Shown here one piece after another: positions 1-62,261 of a DNA stretch of 64,000 nt. The position numbers and the translations under genes were made by a program. Below the pieces are notes generated by a model. The model was given only the letters and a program-made list of their open reading frames with translations. It had not been told where the DNA came from and ran no database searches. Every line of letters begins with the position of its first letter. Within the stretch, counting starts at the first letter, position 1. Location of the stretch: NCBI GenBank assembly GCA_964016885.1, contig OZ024749.1:22320001-22384000 (forward strand). Reading direction: 5' to 3'. Origin of the DNA: Eledone cirrhosa (lineage: Eukaryota).

Positions 1-19
1 TTTATATTATGTATATGTA

Positions 20-1117: not shown

Positions 1118-1458
1118 CCAGGGAGTGTAACTTGGAGTTACTGTAGGTTCACCCAGGTGAGCACTCGATCTTTAGGTTCACTTCAGTGTCGCGGTGTAGA
1201 GCTAGACAGAGTGTATTATAGTGAAATAAGATAACAAGGACGATTTGTTACTCCTTCATTACGTTTATTGGTTGGTGACGCGCGTTTCGGCACTGATCAG
1301 CTCAAGGTTCATTCCTTGTTAAGAAGTCTGACGAGCCGCAGATTACAGAGTCGGGTCAGATCGATACAGATCTAACCTTGAGCTGATCAGTCGCGAAACG
1401 CGCGTCACCAACCAATAAACGTAATGAAGGAGTAACAAATCGTCCTTGTTATCTTATT

Positions 1459-1557: not shown

Positions 1558-1812
1558 GTATTAAATTAACAATGAAAATAAAAACAGCAAAGTCAAGTTA
1601 ATTTACCTATTTATATGAATAGGTAAAATAACTTGACTGCGTTGTTTTTACTTTCATTGTTAATTTAATACGTTATATCTGACTCTGTATCTAAGGAATT
1701 AACGCAGTGGAACACGGAACTTTTCTATGGATTTCAATCGATTCTTCGCCATCAGATTACATTGAGTTCTATCTACGGTTCTGACCCTACCACCAAGGGT
1801 AGACCACACTGA
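1558..1812 (+). repeat. Fold-back hairpin (1558-1671) plus conserved 3' tail related to 35325-35467 and 45590-45730
   Basis: Imperfect inverted arms of about 55 bp; shared gactctgtat...ttacattgagttc...ctacc...ggtaga. Confidence 0.7.
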
Positions 1813-5429: not shown

Positions 5430-5630
5430 GTCAGCTTATCAGTGTATCTCTGTGTGTATTTGTATGCCATCCTTGTGTTTAGTTTAGAAACCATGATGAT
5501 GATCATCATAAGCAGCAGCAGCAGTAGCGTTGTCGAGTTACGGAGTGCTTTGTCTTGGGATTACACTCGATATCACATATAACATTAAATATTATAACGT
5601 ATCACATTTATGCCCCAATAATAATAATAA

Positions 5631-5819
5631 TAATAATTGTTTCTACTTTAGGCACAAGACCAGCAATTACCCAGTGCATTACTGGTACTTTATTTTATCG
5701 ACCCCATAAGGATGAAAGGCAAAGTTAACCTCGGCGGTATTTGAACTCAGATCATAAAGGGCCGTAACTCTTTGCTGCAAAGCATGGCGTCCGACTCTCT
5801 ACCGATACAGCCAATCCAC

Positions 5820-5820
<1 letters not shown>
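5631..5820 (-). mobile_element. tRNA-derived SINE family A, full length
   Basis: A box tggctgtatcggtagag, B box gagttcaaatac, central gcctttcatcc..gggtcgataaaataaagtaccag domain, (ATT)n tail. Confidence 0.9.
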
Positions 5821-5880
<60 letters not shown>

Positions 5881-9100: not shown

Positions 9101-9559
9101 ACACAGTCCCAGCGTGCATCTAAGATCCCGTTCCAGTCGCCCACTAACACTAAAGAGCCGGACGTTCCAAGAAAGGTCTCCAGACGCTGGAAGAAATCAG
9201 GCCGCCCTGCTCCTGTCGGGGCATAGACGGCCACTAGCCTGAAAGCTTGCCCGTCTCCGCTGGTCACGTCCAGCACCACCAACGTACCCTCTGGGTCCAG
9301 GAAGATGGCCCGTATGGCGAGATGCAAACCTCTCCGAAAAAGCACAGCAACTCCCCCCCCCCGATCCAGGACGGCTGGGAGATGCGTACACATCGTAGCC
9401 GCCGAAGATCGGTGCGAAGGCCCGTGCTTCGGAGATTCTGGTCTCGCTGATGGCCACTACATCTATGTTTAGTGACCTGAGGTCGTTGAGCAGGTGACCC
9501 TGCTTCCATGACGACCCCAAGCCACGCGCATTTATGCTGCCTATTCTGAGTGAGGTCAT
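6141..9559 (-). pseudogene. LINE ORF2: AP endonuclease, reverse transcriptase and C-terminal zinc finger, with three frameshifts
   Basis: SINARG..SETR, VYAP, GDWN, YLDR, TDH (APE); KSPGLDG, RPITLLN, DQSKAFDRVDH, QGCPLS, AYADD (RT); CPRC..ETVLHALVQC. Frameshifts near 9355, 8585 and 7445. Confidence 0.95.
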
Positions 9560-9594
9560 GTTTAAAATAGAGTGGAAAAGATGGGAAAGACCAC

Positions 9595-11708
9595 TTACCG
9601 TACTTTTCGTAGAGGAGGGATGGTTTTTACATCCCTTTTCACTTGATCGTCTGGTGAAGGGACCGTTGAATCGTCCCTTCGGCTGGTCATCGGCTCTTCT
9701 ATCAGTATGTACGAATATACTCTTCGGTTGATAGTTCCTCCTAGGACTCTTAAATCACCAACTGCGTTGGGGAATTTCGTTTTAATGTTTGTGTATTGTT
9801 TCTGTGCTATTTTTAGCAGTCTTATGTTAGTTGGCGTTTTGATTGGTGCTGGTATTATGTAGTCGTGTTGTGAAATGTCTGTGTGTTCAATTATGTAAAT
9901 CATTAGTTTCTTGTTGTGTGTATTTATTGCCGTGCATTTGTTTTTCTGGGGGTGGGGTGTGGTTCTGCAATTTTCTTGTCGTTTTTGCTGGGTGTGTGTG
10001 TTTTGTTGTTGTGTTTGCGATGTTGGTGCTTGTGGTGGTGGTGTTGAAGGTGTTGTTGTTGTTGGCGGTGGGGTTGTCACCGGTGGTGATGGTGGAGCTA
10101 GTGTGGGTGGTGATGGTGTTGGTGGTGTTGCTGCTGTTAGTCTCTTTGCAGTAGACTTTACCCTTTTTTCATTTCTTTCTTCCCTTTTAAAAGGCGACGA
10201 TGCGCTGCTTCTGCGTTTGTGCCTTCTTATGACCTTTTGCCATCCCTCTCCCACCTCACACTCCATGTTAGATTCTGTGAGGTTGGGGAGGGGTACCAGC
10301 TACACTCTTTCACTTGTTGTTGTTGGTGATGTTTGCACTGGAGTCTCTGTTGCAGCTGCATTTGGTATTGCTGTTGTTGTTGTTGTTAATACTTCCACTG
10401 CTGCTGCTCGTTTTGATTTCCGTGGCGAGGGTATGGGTGCCACGGACCTATCGTTCCTGGTTGCCGCTTGTCCTGTTGCTGGTAGCCGTGGAGCCGGTTT
10501 CGGAAGAAGGGGGGTTTTCTCCTTTCTCAGGGTCTTCTCGTTGCAGAAGGCCCTGAGGTGAGTCTTCGATCCACAGCGAAAGCATTTCGGGCGTTTGCCC
10601 TCAACACTTTGGGCAGTTGAGTGCCGTTATCGAAGTCTATCACATCCGGGATAGCATCGATGCACTCCTGGTTGGTTTGGATTAACATCTCAATGGAGGT
10701 GCCGACCCAATCTTCTCTTACTTTTTTCTGTACTTGCAGTACAGTTGTTTTGTCCTCGATTCCGACGAGGACAGACGCGGCCAGCCAAGAAGGGGCCATC
10801 CCCGGAGGGACGTGGGTCAGTTTGACCCTCTCAATTTTTTGCCCGCAGTAGGAGGGCACCAACACCATTTCCTAGCTCTTTAGGGTCACTACGGATTGAG
10901 CCTTTGCCTCCTGGGGTCTGGCAAAAAGTACGTCTACGGTGGCATATTTCTTGCCTCGGGTGATGTGCGTTTTCCGCTGCCACACAGACCCCAAGGCTTT
11001 TCGTATTTGAGCCTCTGTGGCTCTTTTAACCCTATGGGATTTTGTACTTACTGTACAGTACGTGACCGTACAGTGCTGTTGGGTTTCGAAACATTTTTCA
11101 GCTGCCTTGCAGATTGCTCGGTGTCCAGTTTTTGTCACCATCTTCTTCGCTTCCTCTAATTCCTCATTTGTTATGAGGATTGTTTCCAGGTTCTTCGCGA
11201 TACCTGCAAACGAGATTTGTTTTTCGTTGCTGCTGTTGTTGTTGTTGTTGTCGTCAGAGCTGCTGTTACTTTTGTTGTTGCTGCAGGTACTACGACTACT
11301 GCCGCCGCCGCTGTTACTGTGGTTGTTGTTGCTGTTGCTGCTGCTAATGCTGTTGTTGTTTATGCTGCTGCTGATGCTGTTGCGGCTGCTACTGTTGTTT
11401 TCATTGTCACTGTTGCTGTTGTTATTACGGCTGCTACTGTTATTATTCCTGACGTCAGACGAATGAAATGGGATTTCGTATTTCCCGCACACCTTTTTCG
11501 TCGTTGTCGTCGTCGTCGTGGAGAAATATTCCACGGTATGCACGTGATTTTTCTTTTCTGGCGTCGCTTGCGAAAGAGAAGGGAGGGAGAGAGACACATT
11601 TATAGAAGGGAGGGAGATAGACAATCTTCTCTCTGCTGTAGTGACGATTGAGGAAGAAGAAGACGGAATGAGTGGGAGTGACCTATGAAAATTCTTTTTC
11701 GTAGCCAT
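9595..11708 (-). pseudogene. LINE ORF1 (gag-like), disrupted
   Basis: N/S-rich N-terminus, ISFAGIAK, and zinc knuckle CFRCGSKTHLRAFC at about 10543-10585 after a frameshift. Stops at 10872 and about 10300. Confidence 0.85.
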
Positions 11709-13139: not shown

Positions 13140-13335
13140 TTATCCCGGTTTCAATCGGGGGTAATCGCAGTAAGTAAGGTACTCAATACATAGCAGAGTA
13201 TAAATATTTAATATGGAAATGGCTTCTTAAAGGACTAGAACTTTAATTTGGAGGAAATCCTCAGGAAAGGGCTTTCTTGCTGATTTCTTCCGAATGAAAC
13301 AGTTCTAGTCTTGTAGAATTTATTTCCATATTCAA
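13140..13335 (-). mobile_element. PLE-type end with inverted duplication, same family as 35108-35282
   Basis: Shares gtattgagtaccttacttactg..ccgatt..ccgg and gaatgaaacagttctagtc; arms at about 13207-13243 and 13300-13335. Confidence 0.7.
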
Positions 13336-13339
13336 TCTC

Positions 13340-14524: not shown

Positions 14525-14712
14525 GAGTGGATTAGCAGTATCGGTAGAGGATCGGACACCATGCTTTGTAGCATAGAGTTACGGTCCTTTACGGTCTGAG
14601 TTCAAATCCCGCCGAGTTTAACTTTGCCTTTCCTCCTTACGGGGTCGATACAATAAAGTACCAGTAATGCACTGGGGTAATTGCTGGCCTTGTGCCAAAA
14701 GTGGAAACAATT
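14525..14712 (+). mobile_element. tRNA-derived SINE family A
   Basis: A and B boxes, body and tail as in the other copies. Confidence 0.9.
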
Positions 14713-15019
14713 ACCATCCTTATCATCACGATGATGACGATGATGATGATCATCATCATCGTCACCACCACCACCTCCACCACCACCATCCAAAGCAGCC
14801 AAGAACCATATTCCGAATTCTGTCTAAACTCTAATTCTTCAACTTCCTTCACCCCGCAATCTCCTCTTCCTCTAACTTCTCCTCATATCCCACTCCTTAT
14901 CATATACCTCTTCCACAAACGAAACTAAAACATATCTATTACTGTCCCTCCCCCAGTCATACTGTATATAAGAATATTTATCTCTCTATTTATCTGACAA
15001 TTTATCTATCTGTCTATCT

Positions 15020-15761: not shown

Positions 15762-18700
15762 AAGTGGTGGAGAGGCGGTAAGAGTGTTAAGCTCGCACTC
15801 ATCTCCTCTCACCACCTCATTGAAAGACGTCGAAAATGTCGTCAGTTTTGAAAACACGATGTCGAACGTTGATTGTAACATCAACACTAACACAAACACC
15901 AATAACATGCAAAATATAACCAACACCACCAACAACAACAATAATGACAACAAAAACAACAAGAACAACAGCAACAATGATAACAACAACACCATCAACA
16001 ACAACAGCAACACGAACAACTCCACGAACAAGGAAAATATTTCCTTTGCCCAAACTGCGAAAAAAAACCTTGAATACCTGCCAGTAGACATAATCAACGC
16101 TAAGGAGCTACTGGTAGAAGCCAAAAAATACATAGTACACGGGGAAAATTGATCATTTTCGATACACTCCCCCCCCACCCCACACCCCGGAACTAAAAAG
16201 TCAGAGACTCCTAAACACAGTGATGTTTAGGACAGTGTTAAATAAAACGAAAAGACCAGCTCAACCATCACAGAGTGAGATAGAGCTGGTCTTAAAAGAT
16301 GTATTGAAAGACATTCTGTTCATACAAAAGGATAGACTCTATGGGAGTCTATCCATTCTCATGAAGGACCAGGACACGGCAAAAAAACTTTCGGTAAAAC
16401 CTATTACATCCACCGCATACAACTTCTACCCTACGTACATGAGTAGAAGGTTACAGAAAATAAAAATACACACCATTCTTCCAATTATAGACATATGGTG
16501 GATGTTAACAGGTTTTCTTGACCTGAACGATGACATATTAATATCCATGGGAAAGGCATCGGGTGACGCGTTCAGTGGAACGGGCCTCGAACTTTTAGTT
16601 CAAATGAGGCCCGAAAATATCGCCCAGATCCCTGAACGCGTCATACTGGATGACCAAATTTTATAAACATTACCGTTGAGGGTAGGCGGCCCTCGTGTTA
16701 CCTCTATGGAACCAGAGGTCACCTGAAGGCTGTCTGTCCTCAACTTAAAAATAAAATTCCAATTCTGCCCACACCACCAACAACTACACAACCAACACAA
16801 TCACCACCACCACCATTACAAAAACAACAACCACAAGTTAACACAAAACAAAACACTGTCCACCCCAATCCCCACACTAAAAAAACAATTTCCAAAACAC
16901 CCACACCGCAAACACTACCCGAAAATTTACCCCTCCCCTCCAAGACGGAAGACGACCCCCGTGCGTCGTCAGACGAGGGGGAGCATTTCCAAAAAGTTAA
17001 AAGAAAGAAAAGAAAACACCTCAGACACACAAATAAAAACAACCCCTCCCCAAAACATAACACAGACATCAACACAAAAGAACACACAACAACAGCAAAC
17101 AAAAAGCACCACACAAAAACAAAAATATGCATACACATACATAAACACAAGAAACAAAAAACTGTTACACATTATTTATAATAACAATGCTTTTTAGCAT
17201 AGTTACGTCCCTTTACAGTCTGAGTTCAAATCCCGTCGAGGTTAACTTTGCCTTTCATCCTTGTGGGGTCGATAAAATAAAGTACCAGTAATGTACTGGG
17301 TATTTGCTGGCCTTGTGCTAAAAGTAAAAACAATTATTTATAATAACAATTTGGTAAAATTCGAAGGGCCTAACTTCACCCAGGCAGGGGATTTCCCCCA
17401 CCTCAAAATGATAAAAGTCCCAGGGGACATATACAAAACTTTAAGGACAATTTTAAAGAGGACGTGAGCCCCCTGCTGATAGAACCCATAGACAGAGACC
17501 CGGTTACTGGAAACTGAACTTGTCCTTACCGGCAAGTAAAGTGTACAAAGACCGGATTAGTACTTTAGTTAAGGAGCGGTTGACGGGAGCGATCGTCAAT
17601 AGTTCAATAGTTGGTAGATAGTGTAGGGAGGCAATTAGAAGCGGCGACGGGGCCAAAATGCTAGCGTCGAGAACGGCCTTGGGCCAGTTCTTTGACGCGA
17701 AGCACGAAGGCTGCGTTGTCCGAAGCAAAATACGTGCTCTAGGAAACGAGGGGACCAAAGCTGTTAGCTGGACCCGCGTGACAGAAGCCAAAAGAGGAAT
17801 TAGATCCTCTATCCGGTCTTTGCGAGACCAGGATGGACGGGTGATCCTTGAACCTAAGCAGATGTGTGAGGCCTTTCAAAGGCACTTTACCCGATTGTTC
17901 GGGAGGGGAGGGGGGCCGGATTGGGATGTGGACTTCGGTCCATACCTCAACGGCCTGCCGCGTCTTTCGGACGAGGAGGCGAAGTCCTGCGAGGGGCCGA
18001 TTTCAGCTGCTGAGATAGGGGACGTGCTGAGCCGATGCGGCAAACGCAAATCCCGGGCTTCAATGGTCTTCCATACGAACTATATCTAGCTATGCCGGAC
18101 TTGTTCCCCGATCTCCTCGAGGCGGTCTACTGCAACTGGCTGGCAACATAACGGAAGAATTCCCTGTTCTGTGACCAAGGGCGTAGTCTCGCTAGTGAGG
18201 AAGGACGAGAACAAGGGGGACGAAATAAGTAATTTCTGCTAAATGCAGAGTTAAAATTTTGGAAAAGAGATTGGCGCTTGTCGTGGGCAACCTGGTGGGA
18301 GATGCGCAGACATGTGCTATCCCGTCCAGGTCCATCCACGACAACCTCCACCTTATGCGATACATTATAGAGAGGGTTGGGAACGAACCCGGCTTTGGTG
18401 GGGCCCTGATCAACTTGGATCAATCTAGGGCGTTCGATAGGGTCGACCATGGTTACCTGGATGCGGTGCTAGCGGCGGTAGATTTCGGACCCGTTTTCAG
18501 GGGCTGGATCACAACAGTCGCATCTGCTCTAGAGTCAAGGTGAACGGCTACCACTCGGAGCCGTTCGAAATCACGCGGTCCATCCGACAAGGGCGCCCGC
18601 TCTCCTCCCTTCTGTATGTATTGGCCCTCGAGCCACTGCTGCAGAAGTTGGAGTTGTTGCAGGGCATCCCGTTGGAACCGGGATTGCGGAAAGCGGTGTC

Positions 18701-20300
18701 GGCCTACGCCGATGACGTAACAGTAATGGTGTCGACCGCTTCGCAAATCAGGGCGATCGGCACCTTACTGGAGGAGTATGAAAGGTTTACAGGGGCTAAC
18801 CCGAACCGGTACAAGTCGATCGGGTTGCAACTCGGCACGTGGAGGGGAAAATCGATGCCCTCCTATTGCGTCGTCGTCGGCCGGTGAAGTTGCTCGGGGT
18901 CTGGTTCGGACCAGACCTCCAGGTGGAGAAGAACTGTGGTGGGTAACGAACTGGGTGTTTGCACTAACCCAGAAGTGGGCCGAGTGCAAACTATTCCTGA
19001 AAGGTCGGGCGGAGGTGGCGAACACTTATATAGTGTCCGTCATCTACTACCGCCTGACCGTCGTGCCTTGCCCAAGGGAAACGCTCACTAAAATGGAGCG
19101 CGCACTCTTCCAATTCCTTTGGAAGAAGCGGGCCCCTTTGGTGGGGAGATCCATCTGCTGTCAACACTCTTCGAAAGGAGGGCTGGGGATGCCTTGGCTG
19201 CTGATGTGTAAACACGCATTATGGCTACGGCACCTCCAGGTATTCCTCACCGGTCAACCGCTGTGAGCCCCGTTTGTGAGACGAACCTTTCCGAGACTCG
19301 TCTCACTCACCGAGCTGCAATCCTGGGTCAAGCAAAGACCGAGAAAACTGGGCGCCTGGCACACCGAGTGTGCCCAGGCGCTCACGGCTCTCTGGCAGGC
19401 GGACCCGACTATCAGTGGTGAATCCACCTCGACAATCTATAGAAGGCTGGTACGCAGCAGGTGAGACGACGCTCTCGGCGAAGCCCTAGGCATGGAGGAA
19501 GACGAACTGGCCAGCCTGTTCGGTAGGACATTTATCCCGGGACCCATGGACAACTTCCAGAGGTCCCTGGACTGGCACTGCTACCGAGGGGCTCTGCCCC
19601 TTCGAGAAAAGCTCTACAGACCCGGTTTCCTGGGTAAGGACCCCTCGAAAAAGATTGTCCCAGATGCGTGCGCGACGAGGAAACCGTCGCGCATGCATTG
19701 GTAAACTGCCCGGGCGTCGCCGATCTGTGGGGCTATGTCGAACGACTGCTGTCACGGGTGGGACCTATCCGGTTGACCACCGAGTCCATTATAACGATCA
19801 AGCCGCCTCGCCACTTCAAAAATGAAGGAGAGGAGGTGTTTCTGTGCGTAATAGCCATGGTGAAAGAGGCTGTATGGTGGACGCGTTTGAAAGGACTGAG
19901 GTCAGACACCTTTCTCTCTGGCCAACAACTGGTCCTTTTCTTCCGATATCATTTCGGAAGAAGGATCAGGATGGAGAGAGAGGTGCTCCACCCCAGCCAG
20001 TTTTATGATGATGGGTGAAAGTGGCGAGAATGGCCCGTGTGAATGGGCCTTCTCTCTATATCAGCCTGTAGGTGAAAAAGATGGAAGAACAAGGGAGCAC
20101 CCTCTCTCTGCGCTCCTGAGGAGAAGGGTTGCACACTTTTTCGGGGGGGTGTGCGACCCCAAAAACGCCTCCTCCCTATTGAGGACTTTATTGTTAATTT
20201 TATATTTGTTATTTGTTTTTTTACTCGTTCTTTTGTGTAAACTCCCCCCTTTGTATTTGTCCCCTTCTTTTGCGCCCTCGTGGCAATAAATAGAAACATA
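15762..20300 (+). mobile_element. Decayed Tx1/L1-clade LINE with the APE region deleted
   Basis: ORF1 remnants (N-rich, ISFAQTAKK); RT fragments (DQSRAFDRVDH, AYADD) homologous to the 5880-11925 element; AATAAA at the 3' end; (CTAT)n flanks. Confidence 0.9.
17189..17335 (+). mobile_element. 5'-truncated SINE family A inserted in the LINE, with 18 bp target site duplication
   Basis: attatttataataacaat at both 17171-17188 and 17333-17350. Confidence 0.85.
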
Positions 20301-20393: not shown

Positions 20394-20540
20394 CGAAGGA
20401 GTTGTGGTAAGGAACCAGATGGACCATAACGCACCCGAGTACTCAATACTTAGGGTAGTAGGTGGGTAATAGGAAAATGTATGACCCCGACGGCGGAGCT
20501 CAAACCCCGTTCGACGGCTATTTCTGGACTAGTCCAGATG
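20392..20540 (-). mobile_element. PLE-type end family (also 57470-57664, 60266-60340, 61001-61205)
   Basis: Shared gtattgagtac..tatggtccatctggttccttaccaca..cgtt end abutting (TA)n; carries the 3' half of a hammerhead. Confidence 0.75.
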
Positions 20541-22775: not shown

Positions 22776-23193
22776 TATACACACATAACTATGGCAACGA
22801 CACGAAATACAATAATAACCCGGATGATGACACGAAATAGATATTCTTGCAAGCAACCAGCCAACCAAAAGATGCATCCTTCTGGTGCAACTGCTTGCAG
22901 CTACCTGCAACTAATCTAAGCTATATTCGACTGCTTAATTAAGTAGATCAGGTGACTGCATATATCCGACAACACTTCACCTACACCACCTCCACTTACA
23001 CGCCACCACGCCCCCTCACCATTAACTCCCCTCTTTTTTCCCTTTTCCCATCAACGCAGTAATTCCATTTCTCACTAACCAGACAAACTTCAACGTGAAT
23101 TATGTCTTCAGCGTTTCAAGTTATCCTCTGTATTTCTCGTTTTCCTTCGTTATCAGAATTTTCGTTTATCCCTTTAATTACATGGTATTATTA

Positions 23194-24062
23194 GTGCAGT
23201 GAATTGGCAGACTCGGTTGAGCGTCAGCATATAGTTACACCCACTTAAGTTCTGAGTTCTGAGTTCAAATCCCGCCGAGGTTAGCTTTGCCTTTCTTCCT
23301 TACGGGATCGATAAAATAAAGTACTAATCACGCACTGGGGTCGATTTAATCGACTTTCCCCTCCTCCAAAATTGCTGGCCTTGTGCCTATATAACAAACC
23401 ATTAATAGTGCGGTGAATTGGCAGACTCGGTTGAGCGTCAGCCAAAATGATTTGCGGCATATAGTTACATCCCTTTCAGTCTGAGTTCAAATCCCGCCGA
23501 GGTTAGCTTTGCCTTTCTTCCTTACGGGGTCCATAAAACAAGGTACCATTGATGCACTGCGATAATTGCTGGCCTTGTGCCAAAAGTAGAAACAATTATT
23601 AGTGTGATAGATTGGCAGACTCGGCAGAGGGTCAGCCGAAATGATTTGCGGCATATAGTTACGTCCATTTCAGTTCTAAGTTCAAATCCCGCCGAGGTTA
23701 GCTTTGCCTTTCTTCCTTACGGGGTCAATAAAATAAAGTACCAGTAACGCACTGGCGTCGATTTAATCACCTTCACCATCTCCCTTTAAATTGCTGGCCT
23801 TGTGCGTAAATCAGAAACAGTTATTATTATTGTTTTTGTTAAGGGTGGTGGACTGGCAGTAATCGGTAGAGCGTCAACTAACATGCTTTGCGGCATATAG
23901 TTACGTCCCTTTACCTTCTGAGTTCAGATCCCGCCGAGATTAGCTGTACCGTACATCCTTACAAAATCGACAACATAAAGTACCAGTAATACACTGGACT
24001 CGATATAATCGACTTTAGCCTCCCCTAAAAATTGCTTGCCTTGTGCCTAAATCAGGAACCAC
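23194..24062 (+). mobile_element. Head-to-tail array of four SINE family A copies
   Basis: Units start near 23194, 23408, 23601 and 23842, each with tggcag..cggt.gag and gagttcaaatcccgccgag. Confidence 0.9.
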
Positions 24063-24999
24063 TAATTACACATAGCTATGGTAACTGTTGGCTGTTAATG
24101 GTTAAATCTTGGGTTTTAGCTTTCTGTTCTTGTATATAAACATGCGTGCGTAATATTCGTTACAATTTGTGCTGAGAAACGGATGTTTATTGCTCAAAAC
24201 AGCCCCAGGTTTAGTCCTATGAGAATAAGTCAGACATATAAATCATCATCGCAGACATCTTGCTCTGCCAAGACAGGCGAAATTCTGTAAGACTAGGCCC
24301 AGCCTAATTCTTCTTCCCTACCAGACAACTTTAGACAGAAATGTACATACATAAAACACATATTTTCTCGAATTCTGTCTTATTTATTGACAGATATATA
24401 TGTATAAATACATACACATATACACATACATAAACAAATACATACATATATACATATGCATATACATACATGCATGTGCATTCATACCCACACCCACAAA
24501 CGCACACGCAAATATATATATATATATTTGGTGACGATGATGATGTTGTATATATATATATATGTAAAAGGTAAACAGAAATAACAACACAATCGGTACA
24601 GTATATGGAAGGGATATATTAGCTTAACGCTTCAACAACACAATCTAACAACAAACTAAAACTCCAACAACACCATGACTCAATCTCACAACAAACTGTC
24701 TTTCCAACAACATAATCCAACAACAAACAATCGCCCCAACAGTACCACGAGATAATGCCACAACTGTTGCTCTAACAGTACGGTAACACAATCCCATCAC
24801 TGACTGTGCCCCACAACACAACAGCAACAGCACAACAGTGGCTCACATCTACCTCAACCCACTACACACCCTCCCACCAAACTTATCACTGACCCAGACA
24901 TGGTTTCAACATCCTTTTCAACAATCTGACATTTCACAAATGGAAAGCTCAACTATGCGAGCTTGCTTCACAATCAACTTAATAATAATCATTGTTATT

Positions 25000-35102: not shown

Positions 35103-35107
35103 ATATA

Positions 35108-35280
35108 GTTTTAATATAGATGAGATTCTACAGGACTAGAACTGTTTCATTCTTTAGAAATCATCAAAGAATGAAACAGTTCTAGTCCTGTAGAATCTCA
35201 TCTATATTAAAACTTTTATACTCTGCAATGTATTGAGTACCTTACTTACTGTGGTTACCTCCGATTCAACCCGGAACAAC

Positions 35281-35282
<2 letters not shown>
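35108..35282 (+). mobile_element. PLE-type end with 48 bp perfect inverted arms
   Basis: Arms 35108-35155 and 35166-35213. The minus strand across the loop reads TTGATGA-TTTC(TAAA)GAAT-GAAAC..GTC. Confidence 0.75.
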
Positions 35283-35321
<39 letters not shown>

Positions 35322-35463
35322 TAATATTTTATCTTGACTCTGTATTCCGTTTATCTTTCACCGAAAGTGATTCTTCATTGCATCTCATCTTTCCATGATA
35401 TCCGGATTACATTGAGTTCTTCATACGGATTGGACACTACCGTAAACTCTTGGTAGATTTATC

Positions 35464-35541
<78 letters not shown>

Positions 35542-35664
35542 AACGGGTGTATACTTCTTCTTTTCGTATCTTCGAAGCAAGTTGTTATATGACAGTTTCC
35601 CATTTCTTTACACAGTCCTTTGCATTATTATTAAATTATTATTAAAATTAAATTCTTATTAAAA

Positions 35665-35860
35665 GGGCGGTAGATTGGCAGTATCGGTAGAGGGTCGGTC
35701 GCCATGCTTTGACGCATATAGTTACGGCCCTTTCCATTCTGAGTTCAAATCCCGCCGAGGTTAACTTTGCCTTTAATCCTTACGGCGTCGATAAAATAAA
35801 GTACCAGTAATGCACTGGGTAATTTACTGGCCTTGTGCCAAAGGTAGAAACAATTATTAT
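35665..35860 (+). mobile_element. SINE family A, full length
   Basis: A and B boxes, body and (ATT)n tail. Confidence 0.9.
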
Positions 35861-35869
35861 TAAATTCTG

Positions 35870-36559: not shown

Positions 36560-36646
36560 AGGTGACGCGCGTTTCGCCACTGATCAGCTCAAGGTTCGAT
36601 CTATATCGATCCTACTCGACTCAATAATCGGCAGCTCGACGGACCC
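36560..36646 (-). ncRNA. Degenerate hammerhead, homolog of the 1328-1406 motif
   Basis: GGGT-CCGTCGA-long stem II-GAAA-CGCGCG-TC-ACCT. Confidence 0.55.
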
Positions 36647-37452
36647 TCTTAAAATGCTATAAGAAAATGGAATACATGCTATGTGGTAAAGTCAGAGTTT
36701 CAAGAGTTTGACAAAATGGGTTGTTTTGATTGGTGGGTAGGATCAAGGCGATGTACTGGCCTGTAGTGTATATGGGGGTGGGTGTGATGGTGAGATGTTG
36801 GTGACAGACTGTGGATGAGGTGGGCTGTGGTGTGGTGGTGGTGGTAGGTTGTCCTTGGCGTGTAGAGATTGTGGGGGTGGATGTGATGATATGGTGGTGG
36901 TTAAGGTTATTTAGTGGGATGGGCTGTGGTATGAGGTTAGTGGATTGTCAGTAGACGGGTTGGCGTGTGGGCGGGGGTGTGGTAGTGGTGCCGTTGTCTA
37001 TGGTAGCGGCGTTTGTGGTGGTATGGTGGATATATTGGTGGCGTCAGGTCCTTACATAGATACATATTTAGACGCTCTTCGTCTGACAGATACCTTGCAT
37101 ATACGTATTCGCACACACATATATATGTATATATATGCAGATATATTGTTGTATAAACGCACACAACATAAAACACATACGCACATCCTTGCCCACACAT
37201 ATCGGCGTACGCTCACACACAGCCATATGTATATGTACACACATGTATGTGTATGCGCGCATGCGGACATGAATATGGAGAGTGGGGGAGTATCGGTGGG
37301 GGTGGCGAACGACAGAGATGGGGGGAAGGCGAGAGGCGATGTAGAAGGTGTTTTACATATATACATACACATACATACACATGGGTATGGGCACATGGAC
37401 TCACACTCATGTATGCAAGATATACACATACACACTCGCACACATGTATACT

Positions 37453-37504
<52 letters not shown>

Positions 37505-38544
37505 TGTACCGACAACACACACATACACGCTCATATACACATACATGCACATATATGAGCTCACCTACACATACAGTCAGATTTACCAATATACATATAT
37601 GTAGACGTACACATACACACACATACATACACATACATATATACACACACATACACATAGGCATACACATACACATATATATATATACAGATATATATAT
37701 ACACACACATAGACATATGCATACACATGTGTCCACATACACATACACACACATACACATACATTTGCGTACACGCACGCACACTTAAAACGCCCGTATG
37801 AGTAAAAATACTTACACACAGACACACACACTATTGTTGGTTGGGGAGTGGAGGTATGTGTTGTCGGTGTTGATGAAGTATGGAGTTGTGTTTTGTGGTG
37901 GTGGTGGTGGAGTTGTGAGGGACAAACATATATATACCGGATCGAATACCGGTTAACAGGTGACATAAGGAACGTGGGGTAAAGCGTTTATGGACGTACA
38001 GCGATGTGTGTTGTGGACATGCTGATGGTGGTGGTGTTGGGGTGATATGTTAGACAAGATGATTACATGATCAGAGGTTACGGTGTGTTATATGGTAGGC
38101 AGACGGGGGGGGGGGGGGGTATATAATAATTCGATTTGGGAGCGAGGGATGATATGTGTTGATGATGTTAATGATAATGATTGTTGAAGTATGTGGATGT
38201 ATTTAGTGGTGGCGGTGGTTGTGTGTGCGTGCGACAGTACAGTTACAGGGTCGAATTTAGCGTGGGGTTGTAGGTTAGGGTAGATAGAGGGAACATGGGG
38301 GGATGAGGTTGTAGGCGTGTATGGTAGGCACATGACGATGTGTGGTGTGGTGGTGGTGGCGATGGTGTGATATGATCGACATTGTATTTACAAGGTCCCT
38401 TGTCATTGTGGATTGCAAGGTAGAACGTATCATAGGATTCCGATTTAATACGATGTTGCAACTATGAGGTGTGTATGTTGATGTAAATTTTGGTGGTGGT
38501 GATGGTGATGTGTGCGGCATGATATATATAGATATATATATATT

Positions 38545-38850
38545 TATATTGGTAAAAGGAAAAGAAAATGCTGACAAATTGTTCCCAGTGAAAAATAGTT
38601 TAATTAGGATTAAGTAAAAATTAGTAATAGTATTGTTTGGTATTCAGTTTTGGTTTTAAGTTTTACCGGTTGCGCATTTCTAATGCTTTTCAAAAATAAT
38701 TTTGAGATAGAGCGCTCGTGATGTTTGCTCTAATCTGATTAGTTTGGGAAATTCTACCTGTTTTATGTAAAAAAAGTGGCTCCAGATGTATGAAAAAATT
38801 CTTGTGGTCAAAACAATTTTGATTGGTCGGTAGAGGTCATGTGAATGTTA
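38545..38850. repeat. Dispersed repeat family (also 45135-45236 inverted, and 61855-62165)
   Basis: Shared attggtaaa..gaaaatgctgacaaattgtt..accggttgcgcatttc..gattggtcggtagaggtcatgtgaat. Confidence 0.85.
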
Positions 38851-39789
38851 ACAATTGATTTTGCGCCAAATGTAGGTTTGTCTCGGCTGATTGAGAAGTC
38901 ACTGAAAAATAAGTCTTTCAAGACAAATATGTGTGTGTGTGTGTGTGTAGTAGTAGTAGTAGTAGTAGTAGTAGTATAGAGGTTCGTTGTTGTGATAATG
39001 GTCAGCAGGGATGTGTGTGCGACCCGCAGCCTGTTGACAGTTCAAATGCCTATTAAGACAAGTGTGTGTGTGTGTGTGTGTAGCAGAGTAATTTGGGGTA
39101 GAGGGATGGTCAGTAGGAATGTGTCTGTACGTGTGTGGGGGATATTTTAACATGTTAAAAGATATTTTTCAGCTCTTGTCTTATACGGAGAAGTGTATGT
39201 GTGTGTGTGTGTGTGTATATGTCTCTTCGTATGTTAATGTACGCGTGTGTATGTGTGAGTGTATATATGTGTGTGTGTGTGTGTGTGTATATATATGTGT
39301 GTGTGTGTGTGAGAGAATGTGTGTGTGTGTGTGGGTGGACCAGTATTTGTGTGATACTGGTAAAAATGGTGTACATTATTCGATATTTTCAGTAAAAACG
39401 ATTCTCTCAATAGAACATCAAAAACCTTAATAATAAAAGGAGTGAAATGATATATAGTATTGGCATAATACCAAGGTGTGTTTGAGTGTCCAGATTGTAC
39501 GTACTTCAAAGGGAATCCATTAGGCCTTGCCGTATTGGAATACTTGTGTACAAATATGTATGTGCCCATCAGTGTGCAATGCATGTGTGCGTATAGGTAT
39601 GTGTGTGTGTCGGCACGTTTATATCTATAGACATCAAAAGGTATGCAAATTTGTGTATATTTGTGTTGCACCATAGAACATGTGTGTTTACGTATGTCAT
39701 TGTGTTTATATGTGGATAGAGATGTATGTAGGATGTATGCTGATGTAGGTATGTATGTTGACGTGTGTATGTTGTGGGTTTGTCTTAGG

Positions 39790-40872
39790 GAGAAGTGTTT
39801 AGACGGGATCCGTATTTGTTAATAAAGTGAGATTCCTTGCTGATGCGCTGGGTGTGGGTGAAATCATCTTTAAATTTGTAGAGGGGAAAGATCTGAAGTT
39901 GGGATGATTTTGGGCGGCACAGGTATCAATGTGTTCACTCAGTGGTATTTTCCTGTATTTCCGTATTTTAATTTGGGATCTATGGACAGTCATGCGTTGG
40001 CGGAGGCTGTTTTTGGTCTGGCCTATGTATTGTTCTCGACAACCTGAGCAAGTTAATACATATATTAGATTTTCTGATGCGCATGTGAAATTGTGTTTTA
40101 CTTTTGAAATAGAATTCCGAACCCTCTATTAGTTTGATGCATATGCCACAGTTGGGTCTATCGCATTTTTTTACTGTGGGTTTCGTTGTTGTGGCTGGCA
40201 GTACTTTAGCATGTGTTAGGATGTTTTTCATTGACTTAGATTGTCTTTTTCTGTTTATGATATCGTGTGTTCGTAGGATTTGGTTCATTCTATGGTCCTT
40301 TTTCAACACAGGGATGTTCTGGATGATGGTGTCAAAGGCCTCATTGTTGAGGGGGTTGTGTGTGGAGATGTATGGAGGAGCTTTTAGTTTCGGTTGATTT
40401 ACTTTAGGGTGTCTAAGGTCCTGGGTACTGAGTTTTGGGACACGTTGGATTCCATTGTCAATTAGTGATGCAGGGAAGTCCCTGCCTATGAGTGTGTCCT
40501 TTAGTTCTTGTAGCCGTAAGTAGCAGGTGTTTTTATTGGAGACTATAGTACAGATTCTCTTGGCTAAGTTGTAGGGAATATTAATTTTAACGTGTCTAGG
40601 GTGGCAAGAGTTGAAAGGAAGATATTGCTTGGAGTCTATGGGCTTGTGGTATATGTCTGTTTCTATTTTTTTGTTATGGATCTTAATGAGGATGTCGAGG
40701 AAGGGGAATTGTTGATGGCTGTATTCCGTCGTGAAGTTAATATTCGTGTTGAGCCCATTTATAAGGGTGTGAAATTCTTTAAGTTTCTCGATGTTTTCGT
40801 GCCAAAGAATGAAACAGTCATCTAGATATCGCTTCCAGTTCCTTTCTATGTGTAAGTGGAGAGTGTTTCCAA
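39790..40872 (-). mobile_element. Penelope-like element: RT C-terminus, thumb and GIY-YIG endonuclease, frameshifted
   Basis: WKRYLDDCF, FPFLDILI, YHKP..QYLPFNSCHP, C..PNCGIC; after a shift, IYVLTCSGCREQYIGQT..R...H. 5'-truncated at (TA)n. Confidence 0.9.
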
Positions 40873-40972
<100 letters not shown>

Positions 40973-41087
40973 TATGTGCGATCACGTCATGCGTCTGCCA
41001 GCAACTCGGCATGCAAGGAGAAAGGAAAGCGACACACATGTGCGCCCCGTAGCGCAGTAAGACCTAGGTGTATATATGAATAAATGC

Positions 41088-41498: not shown

Positions 41499-42382
41499 CG
41501 TTTCTGAATTTGTTTATCAAGATTCTTTATCTGAAAACGTGTGTTGAAACCGATATTGTTATACTTTGGGAGGGTCATGTTGCCAATAAGAAACACACGC
41601 ACCAGTTGTATCACTTCAATTTATTATAATAAATTTATAAATTTAGGAATTTATAAATTTCCGGTTGGTTGGTTGGTTCCACAACCAGATGGTTGTTTAT
41701 ATATTGTCAAAGTTTTTCCTCACACATTCTGTGCCCTCTTCAGTGACTGGGGATTCTTTTCTTTGTTTTTGTGCCTCTCCTTTGTTCTGTCCTACGCCAT
41801 CTTGTTTCTGTGTTGTGTGTTGTGTGCTCAGTCTGCGCATGCGCCACATCCGGGTGTCTGTGTGTGTTTATATTCGTTTATTTATTTGTTTATTTACATG
41901 TTACTGGTTGGTTGTTTGTTCTATGTGCGTGTGTGTTTTCATTTTGTCCTTAATTGTAAGTTGTGATGTTGCTGTTCCACTCATGTTTTCTATTTAATTT
42001 TGGTTGTAATTCTTTTATGTTTATTGCCTCTGTGATTTGTCTAAACATTGCGTCTTTTGTGTGTGTAGATTCTATTTTTATTTCTGTTCTCTAATTTACC
42101 CTTATGTTCTATTTTAGCATGTTGGTAGACTACAGATGATTCTTTACTATCTTGAAGGTCTCGCCAGTGTTCATTTATCCGTTCCCCTACACTACGAGCT
42201 GTCTCACCTATGTACACTATATTTTTATCTCTACATTGTCCTTCAGTACATCTTATGCTATATACTACATTTCTAGTTTTACAGTTAATATGGGGGCTTA
42301 ATTTACAGGTTACACATTTCTTATCTGAAGGATAAGAAATGTATAACCTGGCCCTCATGGCCCTCCCAAAGTATAACAATAC
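41495..42382 (-). mobile_element. 5'-truncated Penelope-like element: GIY-YIG fragment, 3' UTR and inverted terminal copy
   Basis: [24 protein letters not shown] (42041-42340); inverted copies at 41554-41579 and 42356-42380; degenerate HHR at 41706-41747 (GTCA-CTGAAGA..GAAA..TGAC). Confidence 0.85.
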
Positions 42383-42544: not shown

Positions 42545-45112
42545 TATTCTATTCTAAGGCGTGTAAAATTCCCGAGATCCATGGACGAGTTCTCTCCAGC
42601 GGTCTCAGTCCCCCATTATCGCTGCCATATCCTGTGTCTCAAACAGACCAGTGTCTGTCCTTAGGGCATCAACATATGTTAACCTTGGTCTTCCGCTTCT
42701 AGTGTGTCCATGTAGGGGCTCCCAAATGAGCACTGAATGCAATGTCAACTGTGGATGTCGGTGAGTATGTCCAGCTAACCTCAGTCTCCTCTGTGTCACT
42801 TTTGAGCTGACTTTTGGGACGCTCCCATACAGCTCTGAGTTTTTCATCCTCAGTGTATACTGATTAATGTTCACAGCCATCCTCAGCATTCTCGTGTAGC
42901 ACCCATCCACCATCTGAGTGAGTTTATTGGTCAGTGTTCAAGTCTCAGACCCATACAGCAGCACAGACTCCACTACAGCAATGAAGAGGCGGATTTTCAG
43001 GTCTCTACGAAGGTCCAACTTCCACACCGATCTCAAGCTGTGGCACGCCGCCCAGGCCTTGCTCTTCCCCTCAACCACATCATCTTCCGTATTCCCAATC
43101 TTTGCTCCCAAATACAGGAAGCCCTCAACCAATTCTAGCGGCTTCCCGCCTACATTAGTGATCCCCTCTGGCTTCTCAACATTCTCTACCAGATATTTTG
43201 TTTTAGTCTCATTCATTCTCAGCCCCACACTCATCGACACAGTCTCAACCTCCCGCATCAAATCCTCTGCCTCCCTCACTGTATTTGTCACCAAAACTAT
43301 GTCGTCGGCAAATTCAGCATTCGATACTTTTTTCGCCCTAACTCTCCTGCTCTGAGCCGGTGCTACAGTAAAGCCAGAGTCCTGGTGTTTCTCCAGTGCA
43401 AGGCGCATACAATAGTCCACTACGATGATAAAAAGGTAGGGAGCCAATGTATCTCCCTGGAGCACTCCAGCTAGTATCTCAAAGAACTCTATCATCCCAT
43501 CAGGTGTAATGACTTGGGCTTTGGTGTTGGTGTAGAGCAGTGATATCAGATCCACTCTCTTCTTGGGGATTCCATAAGCCTGTAAGATCTTCATCAGGCA
43601 GTAACGGTCCACAGAATCAAAGGCCTTCCTAAAGTCAATGAAAACCATGACCGCGGGAAGGCACTTTGCTCTAGCTCCCTCTAATATCCTCCTCAGCATC
43701 AGGATGTGACTGGTGGTTGATCTAGCCTCTCTGAAGCCGTTCTGGTTGTCCCTGAGCTTCTTCTCCATCTCAGGCTGGATCCTGTTAAGAATTATCCTGT
43801 TGAGGGTCTTTGCCACAAGTGACGTCAGTGAGATCCCCCTGTAGTTGTTGGTGTTAGAGATCTCTCCCTTCTTTGACACTGGGACGATGTTACTGATCCT
43901 CCACTGATTCGGGGCAACTCCTTTCTCCAGTGCCCGATTACAGAACCCCAGGATGATATAATCAAAATCACACCTCTTCATCACCTCTGATGCCACTCCA
44001 TCTTCTCCATGAACCTTGCCGTCCTTGATCCACTTCTTGGCTCTCTGAAGCTCCTCTCTGGTGAAGGGCTCTGTCTCAACATCCAGTTCCTCAAACAGTC
44101 GCCTGATCTCCCCAGTGCTCTGGGCTGTGGAGGGTGGCCCTCCTAGTAGGGTCCTAAAATGGTCTAGCCATTTCCTCTTCCTATCCTCGGGCCCCGTTAC
44201 CTGGATCTGACTCGAACACCTTCTCTTCCTCCCTGTGATCTCGTTGATGATCATCCAGCTCTCCTTACATCCAGATCTGTCAACCGCTCTCTCCACACAG
44301 GATATTGTGTGCCTGAGTGGTGTTGACAGCTCTACACACCTCCTCATGGAACTCTTCCGCACTCACATCACTGTCCCCCTTGGTTGGACTATAGGCTGAG
44401 ATGACTGTCAGTCTTGGGTTTCCATTGAAGGTCACCATCAACACTCGCGGGGAGATAGGCATTATTTCCCTCACCAATAGATTGGTTTTTGCACTGAACA
44501 CAAAACCCACTCCTCCTACTGCAGCATTTGTTGTGTTCTTCACTGCCGATGTAGTGATGAGCTGGCTGTTCTTCCCGATCATCACACTCCTCACGGGCTC
44601 ATCGTGTAGGATCCTGTATTCTTGGATCGCAAGTTTCTGTATACCCCTCTCCTCGAACAGATGTCCCAACTCCTCTCTCTTCTCCAGCGTCCGAATAGTC
44701 CTCACATTCAAAGTGCCCATTTTGATGGCTCTTCTGTAGGACAAAACTGTATTCTTTATATTTGTCTCTGAGACAGCTGATCCATCATCCACTGGCCCTC
44801 TCTGTGGCTCTACGTCAGCAGAGTCATAACGACCAGGCTGCTCCTTGACAGTGTAATTAGGAGCTCTAACCCTAGTGCTGTTAGATCGACTCTCCATATT
44901 TCTTTTCAATGGCTGACAATACCTTACCGGCGCCACTCGAATAAGGTAGTTATTTAACCCATAAATGGAGCCCTAACAAGTACTACCACCCCGGGCCAGG
45001 GCAGACCTGGGAGTCATGACAACTAAGGGGTAACTCCACATTCCCCACAACTCCTGAACTCCCGAACTGGAGCCTTGCCACTGGTTGTAGTTTAATGTCA
45101 TACTCAGGACAA
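42545..45112 (-). mobile_element. RTE-clade LINE, internally deleted and disrupted
   Basis: APE N-terminal half (GTLNVRT, AIQE, GGVG, SAYSPT); RT (YRGISL, QNGFR, DFRKAFD, GVLQGD, EFADD); RRLRLAGH..GRPR; (AATAG)n tail. Confidence 0.92.
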
Positions 45113-45531: not shown

Positions 45532-45727
45532 AACTTTTTTTGTTTAATATAAGGAACTGTTTCATTGTTTTATTCATTATTTGTTTAATATTTTATCTTG
45601 ACTCTGTATTCCGTTTATCTTTCACCGAAAGTGATTTTTCATTACATCTCTTCTTTCCATGATATCCGGAATACATTGAGTTCTTCATACGGATTGGACA
45701 CTACCGTAAACTCTTGGTAGATTTATC

Positions 45728-47340: not shown

Positions 47341-47503
47341 TATATATATATATATATAATAAGGGTTGACGGACCCAGCATATGTATCAATGCCAGTACC
47401 GGTTGTATCTCAGCGCACTCAATGGGCAATGCAAGATACATTAACAGAGTATACACAGTTATTTGGCTCAACACAACACACGTAAAGCGGGTGCCTATAA
47501 GGT

Positions 47504-56954: not shown

Positions 56955-57453
56955 GTGGTACTCAATACATTGGTAGAGTTTAGACATCTATATTACAAAT
57001 ATACGAATTACTTCTACAAGACTAGAATTGCTCGAAATGCTTTTAATTAAGCATACAGTGTATTGCAATATACACTATATTTACATTCATATATATATAT
57101 ATCGCTATTTCAGAGCACCAATTCTAATTTTCAATTTCTGCTTGACCGGCAACTGCTCTGTATAATCAGTTCCTGATTATTACTAGAATTCTATAAGAAT
57201 CAAACATTCATGATTTTCAGCAAACAGGTGGAATACTTAGCTTTGATAAGTACCAAAAAGTACGAAACAGAGCTCTGTCAGCTTTATCTCCCCTGTTAGC
57301 TAAAAATTTAAAGTAAGTGAGACTGTCACATTTGTAAGTGAGACTGTCACTTACAAATATACGAATTACTTCTACAAGACTAGAATTGCTCGAAATGCTT
57401 TTAATTAAGCATACAGTGTATTGCAAAATACACTATATTTACATTCATATATA
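56955..57453 (-). mobile_element. Terminally redundant non-coding element, 358 bp unit
   Basis: About 100 bp direct repeats at 56993-57095 and 57351-57453; shares ttctagtcttgtagaa and gtattgagtac with the 13140/35108 family. Confidence 0.7.
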
Positions 57454-57805
57454 TGTATATATATATATATAACGAAGGAGTTGTGGTAAGGAACTAGATG
57501 GACCATAACGCAACAAAGTACTCAATACTTAGGGTAGTAGAGTGGGTAATAGGAAAAAGTATGACCCCAACAGCAGAACTCAAGCCGTTTCGACGGCTAT
57601 TTCTGTCCAGAAATAGCCGTCGAAATGGCTTGAGCCCTGCCATCGGGGTCATACTTTTTCCTATGTATATATATATAAACGGAAAAAATTAAACGAAATT
57701 TCATTTCCTACTCTTAGTACGGCTGTTACTTAAATATATGTATACAGACGTACAGTAGTATGTATATATATATACATACATGCACACATATATATATATA
57801 TGTAC

Positions 57806-58151: not shown

Positions 58152-58263
58152 CGCGTGTGTGCGTGTGAAATATTTCCGTAGAAAAGGTAAAGGAAATAAA
58201 AATGCTCTATGTATTGTACAGAGCTATTTAATTACATAAAAAAACTATAGAATATGATTCTTC

Positions 58264-59894: not shown

Positions 59895-60338
59895 AACACA
59901 CACACACACAGATACACACACGCATATATATAATCGCCCACACATAGCACCTGCCTAGGGAAGATATTTGCTTATTTACTAGGAAACTAATCACGTTGAC
60001 CCAGTTTCTCTGCTCACTTTAGTAATTTAATAAGAGTTTTAGACAGAATGACGTCACACAACAATCCTCCACGATTCCTTCTGAAACGTTTTCTCAATTT
60101 CCAGTCGCCCAACGGCCCTCGCTCTCCCTCTTTCTTTCTCGCCTTACCTTTCTTTAAACTTATTCTTTCACACGCTGTACACACATACTCGCATGCCTAT
60201 ATACTTACGTCTAAAATGCACACCACACGCGCATAAATCCATTCACACACACACACATATATATATACTCTACTACACTAAGTATTGAGTACTATGGTGC
60301 TTTATGGTCCATCTGGTTCCTTGCCACATTTCCTTCGT

Positions 60339-60973: not shown

Positions 60974-61204
60974 CATATATATATATACATATATATATAT
61001 ATAGGAACGAGTAGGACCCCGACGGCTGAGCTCAAGCCGTTTCGACGGCAATTCTGCATTAAAATTAGTCCAGAATTAGCCGTCGAAACGGCTTGAGCTC
61101 AGCCGTCGGGGTCCGACTCGTTCCTATTACCCACTCTACTACCCTAAGTATTGAGTACTTTGGTGCGTTATGGTCCACCTGGTTCCTTACCACATTTCCT
61201 CCGT

Positions 61205-61662: not shown

Positions 61663-62261
61663 TGCACACATACACAGACACACATATATACACACACACA
61701 TATATATGTATATAAATATATACACACACATATATATATATGTATGTATATATATATGTACAAAATAATCATTGATATACATAAACATATATATATATAT
61801 GTATATATACATATATAGTTAAAAGAATAGAGGTGTAACACACAAGTTATTATATATTGGTAAACGGAATAGAAAATGCTGACAAATTGTTCACAGTTGA
61901 AAAATAGTTTAATTAGGAATAAAAGAGTATTAGTGATTGTATGGGTTAGTATTCAGTTGTGGTTTTAAGTTTTTAAGTTTTTACCGGTTGCGCATTTCTA
62001 AATGCTTTTCAAAAATAATTTTGAGATAGAGTGTCCGTGCTGTTTGCTCTGATCTGATTAGTTTTGGGAATTCTACCTGTTTTTATGTTAAAAAAGTGGC
62101 TCCAATTTGCAAAAATTCTTGTGGTCAAAACAATTTTGATTGGTCGGTAGAGGTCATGTGAATAAAAAATTGGTTTATGTTGGTTCTATACCAACACCTC
62201 AGTATGCAGGCTGGAGCACTCGACGAAGTGCGCAGGTTGGTTTGGTTACTCCGGAGTAATG

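What the first reader, a model, noticed from the sequence alone, without database searches (positions are those of the whole stretch)
35219..35418. Shared ACUC / UU-bulge / GAGU hairpin near the 3' end of several unrelated element families
Seen: the stem 5'-ACUC-UR...YA-UU-GAGU-3' recurs with variable, still-paired interiors. Examples: TACTC-TGCA-A-TGTA-TT-GAGTA (35219-35239; 13180-13200 -); GACTC-TGTATTCCG..CGGAATACA-TT-GAGTT (45600-45682; 35336-35418; variant 1681-1768); ACTC-TAC..GTA-TT-GAGT (61133-61156, 60267-60290, 57520-57543 -, 56960-56979 -); TACTC-TG..CA-TT-GAGTG (47416-47451 -). TC-bulge variants occur at 1162-1213 (-) and 62216-62231 (-). Where a hammerhead survives, the motif is on the same strand downstream of it, usually about 40-55 nt before the (TA)n junction. 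Inference: a conserved protein-recognition element, for example for the PLE RT/endonuclease. I do not know of a description of this motif.
Basis: partly seen in the sequence, partly recalled or inferred. Interest (0 to 1): 0.85.

Follow-up and report, generated by a model that had tools for sequence, protein, structure and literature searches.

The report
Twin hairpins set retrotransposon start sites
A group of telomerase-related jumping genes carries, usually in two copies, a short bulged hairpin sequence also found in coral and sea cucumber members, and inserted copies end about five or six bases before one hairpin or the other, so the hairpins likely tell the copying enzyme where to start.

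Summary
The hairpin is real (about 93,700 genome matches against 1,460 for the reversed pattern). The three window families traced to a parent are Hydra-clade Penelope-like elements (PLEs), so they are homologous rather than unrelated. The motif is RCUC-stem-UH bulge-GAGY-ACU and lies between hammerhead and start codon: 28 of 28 metagenome Hydra families have one copy, 23 have two, and the upper pairs covary. Family-1 copies stop at only two sites, 5–8 nt before stem 1 or 3–6 nt before stem 2. All 21 head-to-head pairs had one end of each type. Best reading: an RT recognition element that fixes two internal start sites, each used once per insertion (inferred; no biochemistry). Against: the lead family (35219) lacks an intact second stem, a Neptune-like family has a two-ended tail without the motif, and no RNA data exist. 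Eight literature searches found no description. This scan noted the same twin stems earlier on another piece of this genome (e1-8671399).

The parts
35220..35238 (+). Stem 1 of family 2 (ACUC/UU bulge/GAGU, followed by ACC)
   Evidence: the parent is a Hydra-clade ORF (L375-L377)
35214..35281 (+). Family-2 tail, from the first end site (5-6 nt before stem 1) to the second end site at the (TA)n starting at 35282
35107..35166 (-). Inverted partner copy of family 2, ending at the first end site (no stem)
35337..35417 (+). Stem 1 of family 3 (long interior); the copy ends at (TA)n 50 nt later, 6-7 nt before where stem 2 lies in the parent
   Evidence: parent: Hydra ORF of about 810 aa in 6-7 kb tandem units, L396-L399
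45601..45681 (+). Stem 1 of family 3, second copy
13181..13199 (-). Stem 1 of a family-2 relative; inverted partner at 13274-13338 ends at the first site
61133..61156 (+). Stem 1 of family 1; inverted partner upstream ends at the first site
   Evidence: parent L051 is an intact 717-aa Hydra ORF in tandem units of about 3.54 kb
60267..60290 (+). Stem 1 of family 1, copy 5'-truncated at the stem
57520..57543 (-). Stem 1 of family 1 with inverted partner
1682..1767 (+). Stem with long interior; flanks weakly like family 3; inverted partner ends just before the stem; parent not traced
1163..1212 (-). UC-bulge stem; inverted partner ends 4-8 nt before it; parent not traced
47417..47450 (-). Stem, 58 nt before (TA)n; parent not traced
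56960..56979 (-). Stem with the tail cut short; parent not traced
62218..62257 (-).
58204..58224 (-).

Best explanation
The hairpin is a conserved element of Hydra-clade Penelope-like retrotransposons, usually present twice between hammerhead and start codon, and it likely serves as the RNA landmark that the element's reverse transcriptase binds in order to start copying about 5-6 nt upstream of it. Shown: the twin layout, the covariation, two sharp copy-end sites in register with the two stems, one end of each type per head-to-head insertion, and TA-rich letters just before the stems. Inferred: the GIY-YIG domain nicks both strands of a (TA)n target; one 3' end primes at the site before stem 2 (copying stem 1 and the tail) and the other at the site before stem 1, helped by 1-3 nt of pairing to the UA-rich letters; two RT active sites (a dimer, or two rounds) would then give the inverted structure with a one-sided tail. 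The recognised feature is probably the basal helix, the bulge and the 3' GAGY-ACU together.
For: Register: 92 family-1 copies were picked by an internal pattern upstream of both stems. 49 end before stem 1 (44 match up to exactly 5 nt before it), 42 end before stem 2 (37 up to 3 nt before it), and 1 reads through. Pairing: 21 of 21 head-to-head pairs have one end of each type (p 4e-7 against independence). Among 50 further copies a partner was found for 29: 27 mixed, 1 same-type, 1 unclassified. The same two ends occur in family hy2 (22 and 16 ends, 3 others, 6 read-through) and in the L307 family. Prediction met: a second stem begins 6-7 nt after the tail end of window family 3 (452 matches against 0). 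Outside this genome: 28 of 28 families with intact hammerhead-to-ATG region have at least one stem and 23 have at least two; the strict pattern occurs once in 115 kb of their ORFs; 10 of 13 copy ends away from contig ends lie 0-4 nt (maximal BLAST extension) before a stem. Covariation in stem 1: 96.6% of cells paired, first upper pair U-A 17 / C-G 8 / U-G 1, 0 of 500 shuffles as high. TAT/ATA at -8..-3 in 22 of 27 stem-1 and 12 of 23 stem-2 sites against 18% background. Families 1 and 3 have no canonical hammerhead core in the spacer scanned but keep both stems. Internal initiation at two sites that bound the tail is shown in vitro for a Poseidon PLE (PMC11167929).
Against: In family 2, the finding's lead site, the parent has only the 3' half of stem 2, yet the second end site is sharp; two searches found no intact stem 2. 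A Neptune-like family in this genome has two ends and a tail of about 45 nt with no such stem, so the motif is not needed for tails in general. Microhomology with (TA)n blurs the start to a window (2-5, 3-6, 5-8 nt by family). G-U and A-C counts (12 against 10) give no strand signal. Stem 2 upper pairs are weaker (U2 13 of 25 paired). The basal pairs are nearly invariant, so they show conservation, not covariation. All evidence is from DNA copies; there is no binding or RNA evidence.
Confidence: 0.66

Rival explanations
1. The stem marks an RNA cut (host nuclease or self-cleavage) 5-6 nt upstream, and ordinary 3'-end target-primed reverse transcription then starts at the cut ends.
For: It gives the same end positions. 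Two abundant families have lost the canonical hammerhead core and might need another processing signal.
Against: Independently cut RNAs would not give 21 of 21 mixed pairs without an extra rule. A related PLE initiates internally on uncut RNA (PMC11167929).
Confidence: 0.12
2. The motif acts in DNA (single-stranded cDNA or a cruciform) as a site for the GIY-YIG endonuclease, which trims or resolves the intermediate at fixed distances.
For: PMC11167929 cites earlier work in which the D. virilis Penelope endonuclease needed the tail sequence; PMC8557442 ascribes tails to endonuclease-mediated resolution. The wobble count does not favour an RNA fold.
Against: The stem next to each end is absent from the inserted copy, as expected for a template landmark 3' of the start. 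Interiors of 2 to about 110 nt are tolerated, which fits a folded single strand rather than duplex DNA.
Confidence: 0.11
3. The stems serve translation control or RNP assembly in the 5' leader, and start sites are set only by the TA-rich patches pairing with the target.
For: Stem 2 ends 15-51 nt before the ATG. TA-rich letters are enriched at the sites. Family 2 keeps its second end without a full stem.
Against: TA-rich patches are common in these leaders (18% of windows), yet only those next to stems are used. Family 2's first site has 1 nt of microhomology.
Confidence: 0.08
4. A neutral relic of shared ancestry with no current role.
For: All traced families are homologous.
Against: Flanks and loops are unalignable while the stem is kept with compensatory changes across families only 40-55% identical in protein.
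Confidence: 0.03

Closest known systems
Hydra clade of Penelope-like elements (Craig et al. 2021, PMC8557442)
   Same: C-terminal GIY-YIG, CxCx5C linker, (TA)n targets, pLTRs, tandem and inverted copies, one-sided tail. Three of the six consensi in its File S7 carry the stem (Hydra-2_Amil, Hydra-2_Ajap, and twice in Hydra-1_Ajap; read by eye).
   Different: The passages read describe no such stem ('hairpin' occurs 0 times in the main text). Tails here run about 65-140 nt rather than 30-40. Families 1 and 3 lack a canonical hammerhead core, and units are 3.5 and 6-7 kb rather than under 3 kb.
Poseidon PAc internal initiation (Frangieh et al. 2024, PMC11167929)
   Same: Two RT start sites bound the tail; both target strands are cut and extended; a dimer is predicted; a binding motif is suspected near the start sites.
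   Different: There the sites lie in one AC-rich stem-loop inside the ORF, no conserved motif was defined and no homology to the target was seen. Here a repeated, phylum-spanning motif lies 3' of each site in the leader, with TA-rich letters at the sites.
3'-tail stem-loops recognised by LINE RTs (eel UnaL2, PMC1636434, search listing and start of abstract only; R2 3' UTR, recalled)
   Same: A small conserved stem with an internal loop or bulge that marks the template for the RT.
   Different: Those sit in the copied 3' tail and are single. This one is internal, doubled, and the stem next to a start site is not copied from that start.
L1 twin priming (recalled) and telomerase alignment/boundary elements (passages of PMC12632851)
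   Same: Both target strands prime on element RNA and give an inversion; a stem fixes a template limit and short pairing aligns the primer.
   Different: L1's second priming site is not fixed, as recalled. The telomerase boundary element lies 5' of the template and stops synthesis, whereas this stem lies 3' of the start.

Membership tests
Hydra-clade PLE | Single ORF with RT and C-terminal GIY-YIG endonuclease | tested here: met
   Family 1: 717-aa ORF; family 3: about 810 aa; for family 2 only the N-terminal 470 aa were read
Hydra-clade PLE | RWK and DKT motifs, CxCx5C linker, no CCHH in the endonuclease | tested here: met
   Family 1 reads RWR, DKT and CNCPDRSIC, with no cysteine pair inside the GIY-YIG core (by eye, against the definition)
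Hydra-clade PLE | Groups apart from Neptune and Poseidon in an RT tree | tested here: met
   Quick IQ-TREE only (careful search unfinished): 4 genome families and 27 metagenome rows on one side of a long branch, support 98, against 3 outgroup ORFs from this genome labelled by motif; no named reference proteins in the tree
Hydra-clade PLE | Insertion into (TA)n | tested here: met
Hydra-clade PLE | Canonical hammerhead in the pLTR | tested here: inconclusive
   Present in family 2 and in the 28 metagenome families (selected for it); absent from the spacers scanned in families 1 and 3; CAGAAGA variant in hy2
Hydra-clade PLE | Parent ORF for the sites at 1163, 1682, 47417, 56960, 58204 and 62218 | tested here: inconclusive
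   Upstream stretches fetched for relatives of some of them showed no linked ORF; no read-through search was run for these
RT-recognition stem-loop of a retroelement | Conserved, covarying structure on the sense strand at fixed distance from the cDNA start | tested here: met
RT-recognition stem-loop of a retroelement | Bound by the RT and needed for initiation | not testable with these tools
   Needs biochemistry
Known Rfam family | Match at gathering score | tested here: not met
   None of the 150 listed of 248 matches (E up to 1) reaches its gathering score; all but one are microRNA models, mostly on microsatellites and inverted repeats; 98 lower-scoring rows were not shown

The most novel reading that the evidence does not exclude
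Hydra-clade PLEs use programmed twin priming: an RT dimer docks on two copies of a roughly 20-nt bulged RNA tag kept across animal phyla, each subunit starting from one nicked strand of a (TA)n target. This explains the long-puzzling inverted, one-tailed insertions and would give a portable tag that makes any RNA a template for site-biased insertion.
Probability: 0.42. Interest if true: 0.85.

Novelty: new variant of a known kind. Interest (0 to 1): 0.72.

Why it matters
How Penelope-like elements, the closest retrotransposon relatives of telomerase, choose their template and why their insertions are inverted with a tail on one side is an open question. The only in vitro study read here left the binding motif undefined. 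A doubled, phylum-spanning motif in exact register with both copy ends turns that into a direct experiment (move, delete or swap a stem), and intact young ORFs are at hand. It also gives a simple marker for annotating Hydra-clade elements and their true ends.

Tried and rejected
Rfam gave nothing useful. The viral-contig scan found no relatives. No RNA holder was listed for the family-1 leader, so no reads were laid; this says nothing on expression. The complex-folding tool for an RT dimer was not available, so nothing was folded. One search used a mis-registered structure string and is void; one search is the correct one. A match at 36619-36698(-) to the loose pattern was dropped as chance: it has no RCY flank and is not found by the strict search. 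Three mis-anchored rows (one in stem 1, two in stem 2) are included in its tallies and were dropped. One chimeric family (F26) is counted but left out. One family-1 copy was reclassified from first-site to second-site end. Satellite loci L110-L125 and L161-L176 were left out of the end mapping. A dimerising palindrome (GAGU-ACUC) was considered and rejected because most families have GAGC-ACU, which mispairs. SECIS, Helitron and DNA-transposon readings were dropped once the parents proved to be PLE ORFs. Upstream fetches for several other stem families found no ORF. Not seen: Repbase/Dfam, the supplementary figures of PMC11167929 (pictures), supplements of the 2026 preprint (closed), and the 2004, 2006 and 2017 papers on Penelope tails and hammerheads; a description there cannot be excluded.

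Full report
Observation. All twelve cited hairpins are present; 62216-62231 is the 3' part of a larger stem at 62218-62257. A strict search finds 11 stems in the window against 0.7 in shuffles (pattern tuned after the fact). The window lies in a 3.0-Gb, microsatellite-rich genome (organism not determined), where the A-U form has 93,669 matches against 1,458 for the reversed pattern and the G-C form 14,163 against 25. These counts mostly reflect family copy number. Nine of twelve sites lie 43-55 nt before (TA)n.

What the elements are. A PLE RT fragment next to one hit led to intact tandem units of about 3.54 kb. [quoted passage not shown] This is family 1 (window 61133, 60267, 57520). Read-through searches then found Hydra parents for family 2 (35220, 13181) and family 3 (35337, 45601). 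The families share 46-54% amino-acid identity and group with metagenome relatives, away from Neptune-like and Poseidon-like ORFs of the same genome (quick tree). Their flanks are unalignable, which is why they looked unrelated. Parents of six other window sites were not traced.

The motif outside this genome. Three of six published Hydra consensi carry it, from coral and sea cucumber, one of them twice (File S7 of PMC8557442, read by eye). Across that supplement, 4 of 7 exact hits to five 3'-half words lie in Hydra consensi and the other 3 show no 5' arm in the context given. A metagenome scan returned 78 loci in 60 families. Of 28 families with an intact hammerhead-to-ATG region, all have one stem and 23 have two; of the other five, three have a near-match second stem and one is a chimera. 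The strict pattern occurs once in 115 kb of ORF, the relaxed one 23 times. The consensus is GCUC-Y..R-UH-GAGC-ACU: bulge UU 40, UC 6, UA 6, other 1 of 53 rows, and ACU follows in 46. Stem 1 lies 69-103 nt after the hammerhead core, stems are a median 62 nt apart, and stem 2 ends 15-51 nt before the ATG (three mis-anchored rows included). The upper pairs of stem 1 covary (96.6% paired; U-A 17, C-G 8). The bottom pair is G-C outside this genome and A-U or G-C within it. A model built from those 27 stem-1 sequences alone ranks six window sites first, one of them new.

Register with copy ends. I first saw that inverted copies stop about 5 nt before the stem (note 27). Ninety-two copies picked by a pattern upstream of both stems (the first 92 of 54,335 matches) end at two sites only: 49 before stem 1 (5-8 nt uncopied once TA microhomology is allowed), 42 before stem 2 (3-6 nt), and 1 read-through. 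All 21 head-to-head pairs have one end of each type (p 4e-7), as do 27 of 29 looser pairs. Fully classified pairs in family 2 (9) and hy2 (8) are also mixed, with 15 and 10 further pairs unclassified or read-through (many of these loci were picked by stem 1). In metagenome contigs 10 of 13 informative ends fall just before a stem. The forecast that family 3 would have a stem just after its tail end was met (452 against 0). TAT or ATA stands at -8..-3 before 22 of 27 first stems and 12 of 23 second stems against 18% background.

Mechanism. In a Poseidon PLE, purified protein cuts and extends both target strands and starts at two internal sites that bound the tail, with the binding motif left undefined (PMC11167929, parts 1-2 of 4 read). 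The simplest reading here is that each stem positions an RT active site about 5-6 nt upstream, and that each nicked strand of a (TA)n run primes at one site, giving an inverted pair with a one-sided tail. Positions, pairing and covariation are shown; binding, the dimer and primer alignment are inferred. Against this reading: family 2's parent keeps only the 3' half of stem 2 yet has a sharp second end, which suggests the 3' AGY-ACU letters matter as much as the bulge. A Neptune-like family has two ends and no such stem, so the motif is clade-specific and the one-of-each rule is probably general to PLEs (the one-sided tail is already in print). Wobble pairs give no strand signal. Rivals are an RNA-cutting signal, DNA recognition by the endonuclease, and a leader function with TA-only start choice.

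Literature. Eight full-text searches found no description of the motif. Seen: PMC8557442 (passages, section 11, supplement parts 52-54 and term searches), PMC11167929 (parts 1-2 of 4, supplement term search with no hits), bioRxiv 10.64898/2026.07.22.740005 (parts 1-3 of 5; links retrozymes to pLTRs, no stem described), passages of PMC7229834, PMC4209133 and PMC12632851, and the listing of PMC1636434. L1 twin priming and the R2 3' UTR are recalled. Repbase, subscription papers and picture supplements were not seen.

Verdict. A real, conserved cis element of a known clade: a new variant of a known kind (RT-recognition stem-loops), notable for being doubled and in register with both ends of each insertion. 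Interest 0.72; confidence in the RT-landmark mechanism 0.66.

Noticed in passing
G000:C1:14234975-14252835 (L161-L176) and G000:C1:1721925-1724402 (L110-L125): Long satellites built from stem-bearing units (58-nt and 42-nt periods); the first derives from the family-1 stem and tail start.
   Followed up: no
L378-L381 (G000:C9:23.835 Mb), L364, L354: Short tandem arrays (about 195, 183 and 83 nt) of hammerhead/stem/tail units, like non-autonomous retrozymes derived from Hydra leaders.
   Followed up: partly
L051, L396-L399: Two very abundant, intact Hydra families have no canonical hammerhead core in the spacer scanned, although the hammerhead is reported as universal in the clade; family 3 units are 6-7 kb with a 4-kb spacer.
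   Followed up: partly
L055, L056, L066, L394: A Neptune-like family has two ends about 45 nt apart (one of each in two inverted pairs); its tail is AC-rich with a different small hairpin, like the Poseidon description.
   Followed up: partly
window 38300-40981 (-): Decayed Neptune-like PLE (RT and GIY-YIG, long 3' UTR); a truncated copy of its 3' end abuts the 62218 element.
   Followed up: partly
window 6141-10299 (-), 17500-20055 (+), 42941-44362 (-): Broken LINEs (endonuclease, RT, zf-RVT hits), unrelated to the motif.
   Followed up: no
window 20441-20463 (-): A further family-1 copy whose 5' stem arm has lost a base.
   Followed up: no
window 34803 (+), 46187 (+), 41715-41743 (-), 57968 (+), 36212 (+), 63357 (+): Other hammerhead-core elements ending at (TA)n without the stem; either first-site ends or other PLE clades.
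   Followed up: no
window 884-1029, 5621-5860, 14527-14726, 23183-24066, 35624-35862 and others: An abundant dispersed repeat of about 200 nt, possibly a SINE; not examined.
   Followed up: no
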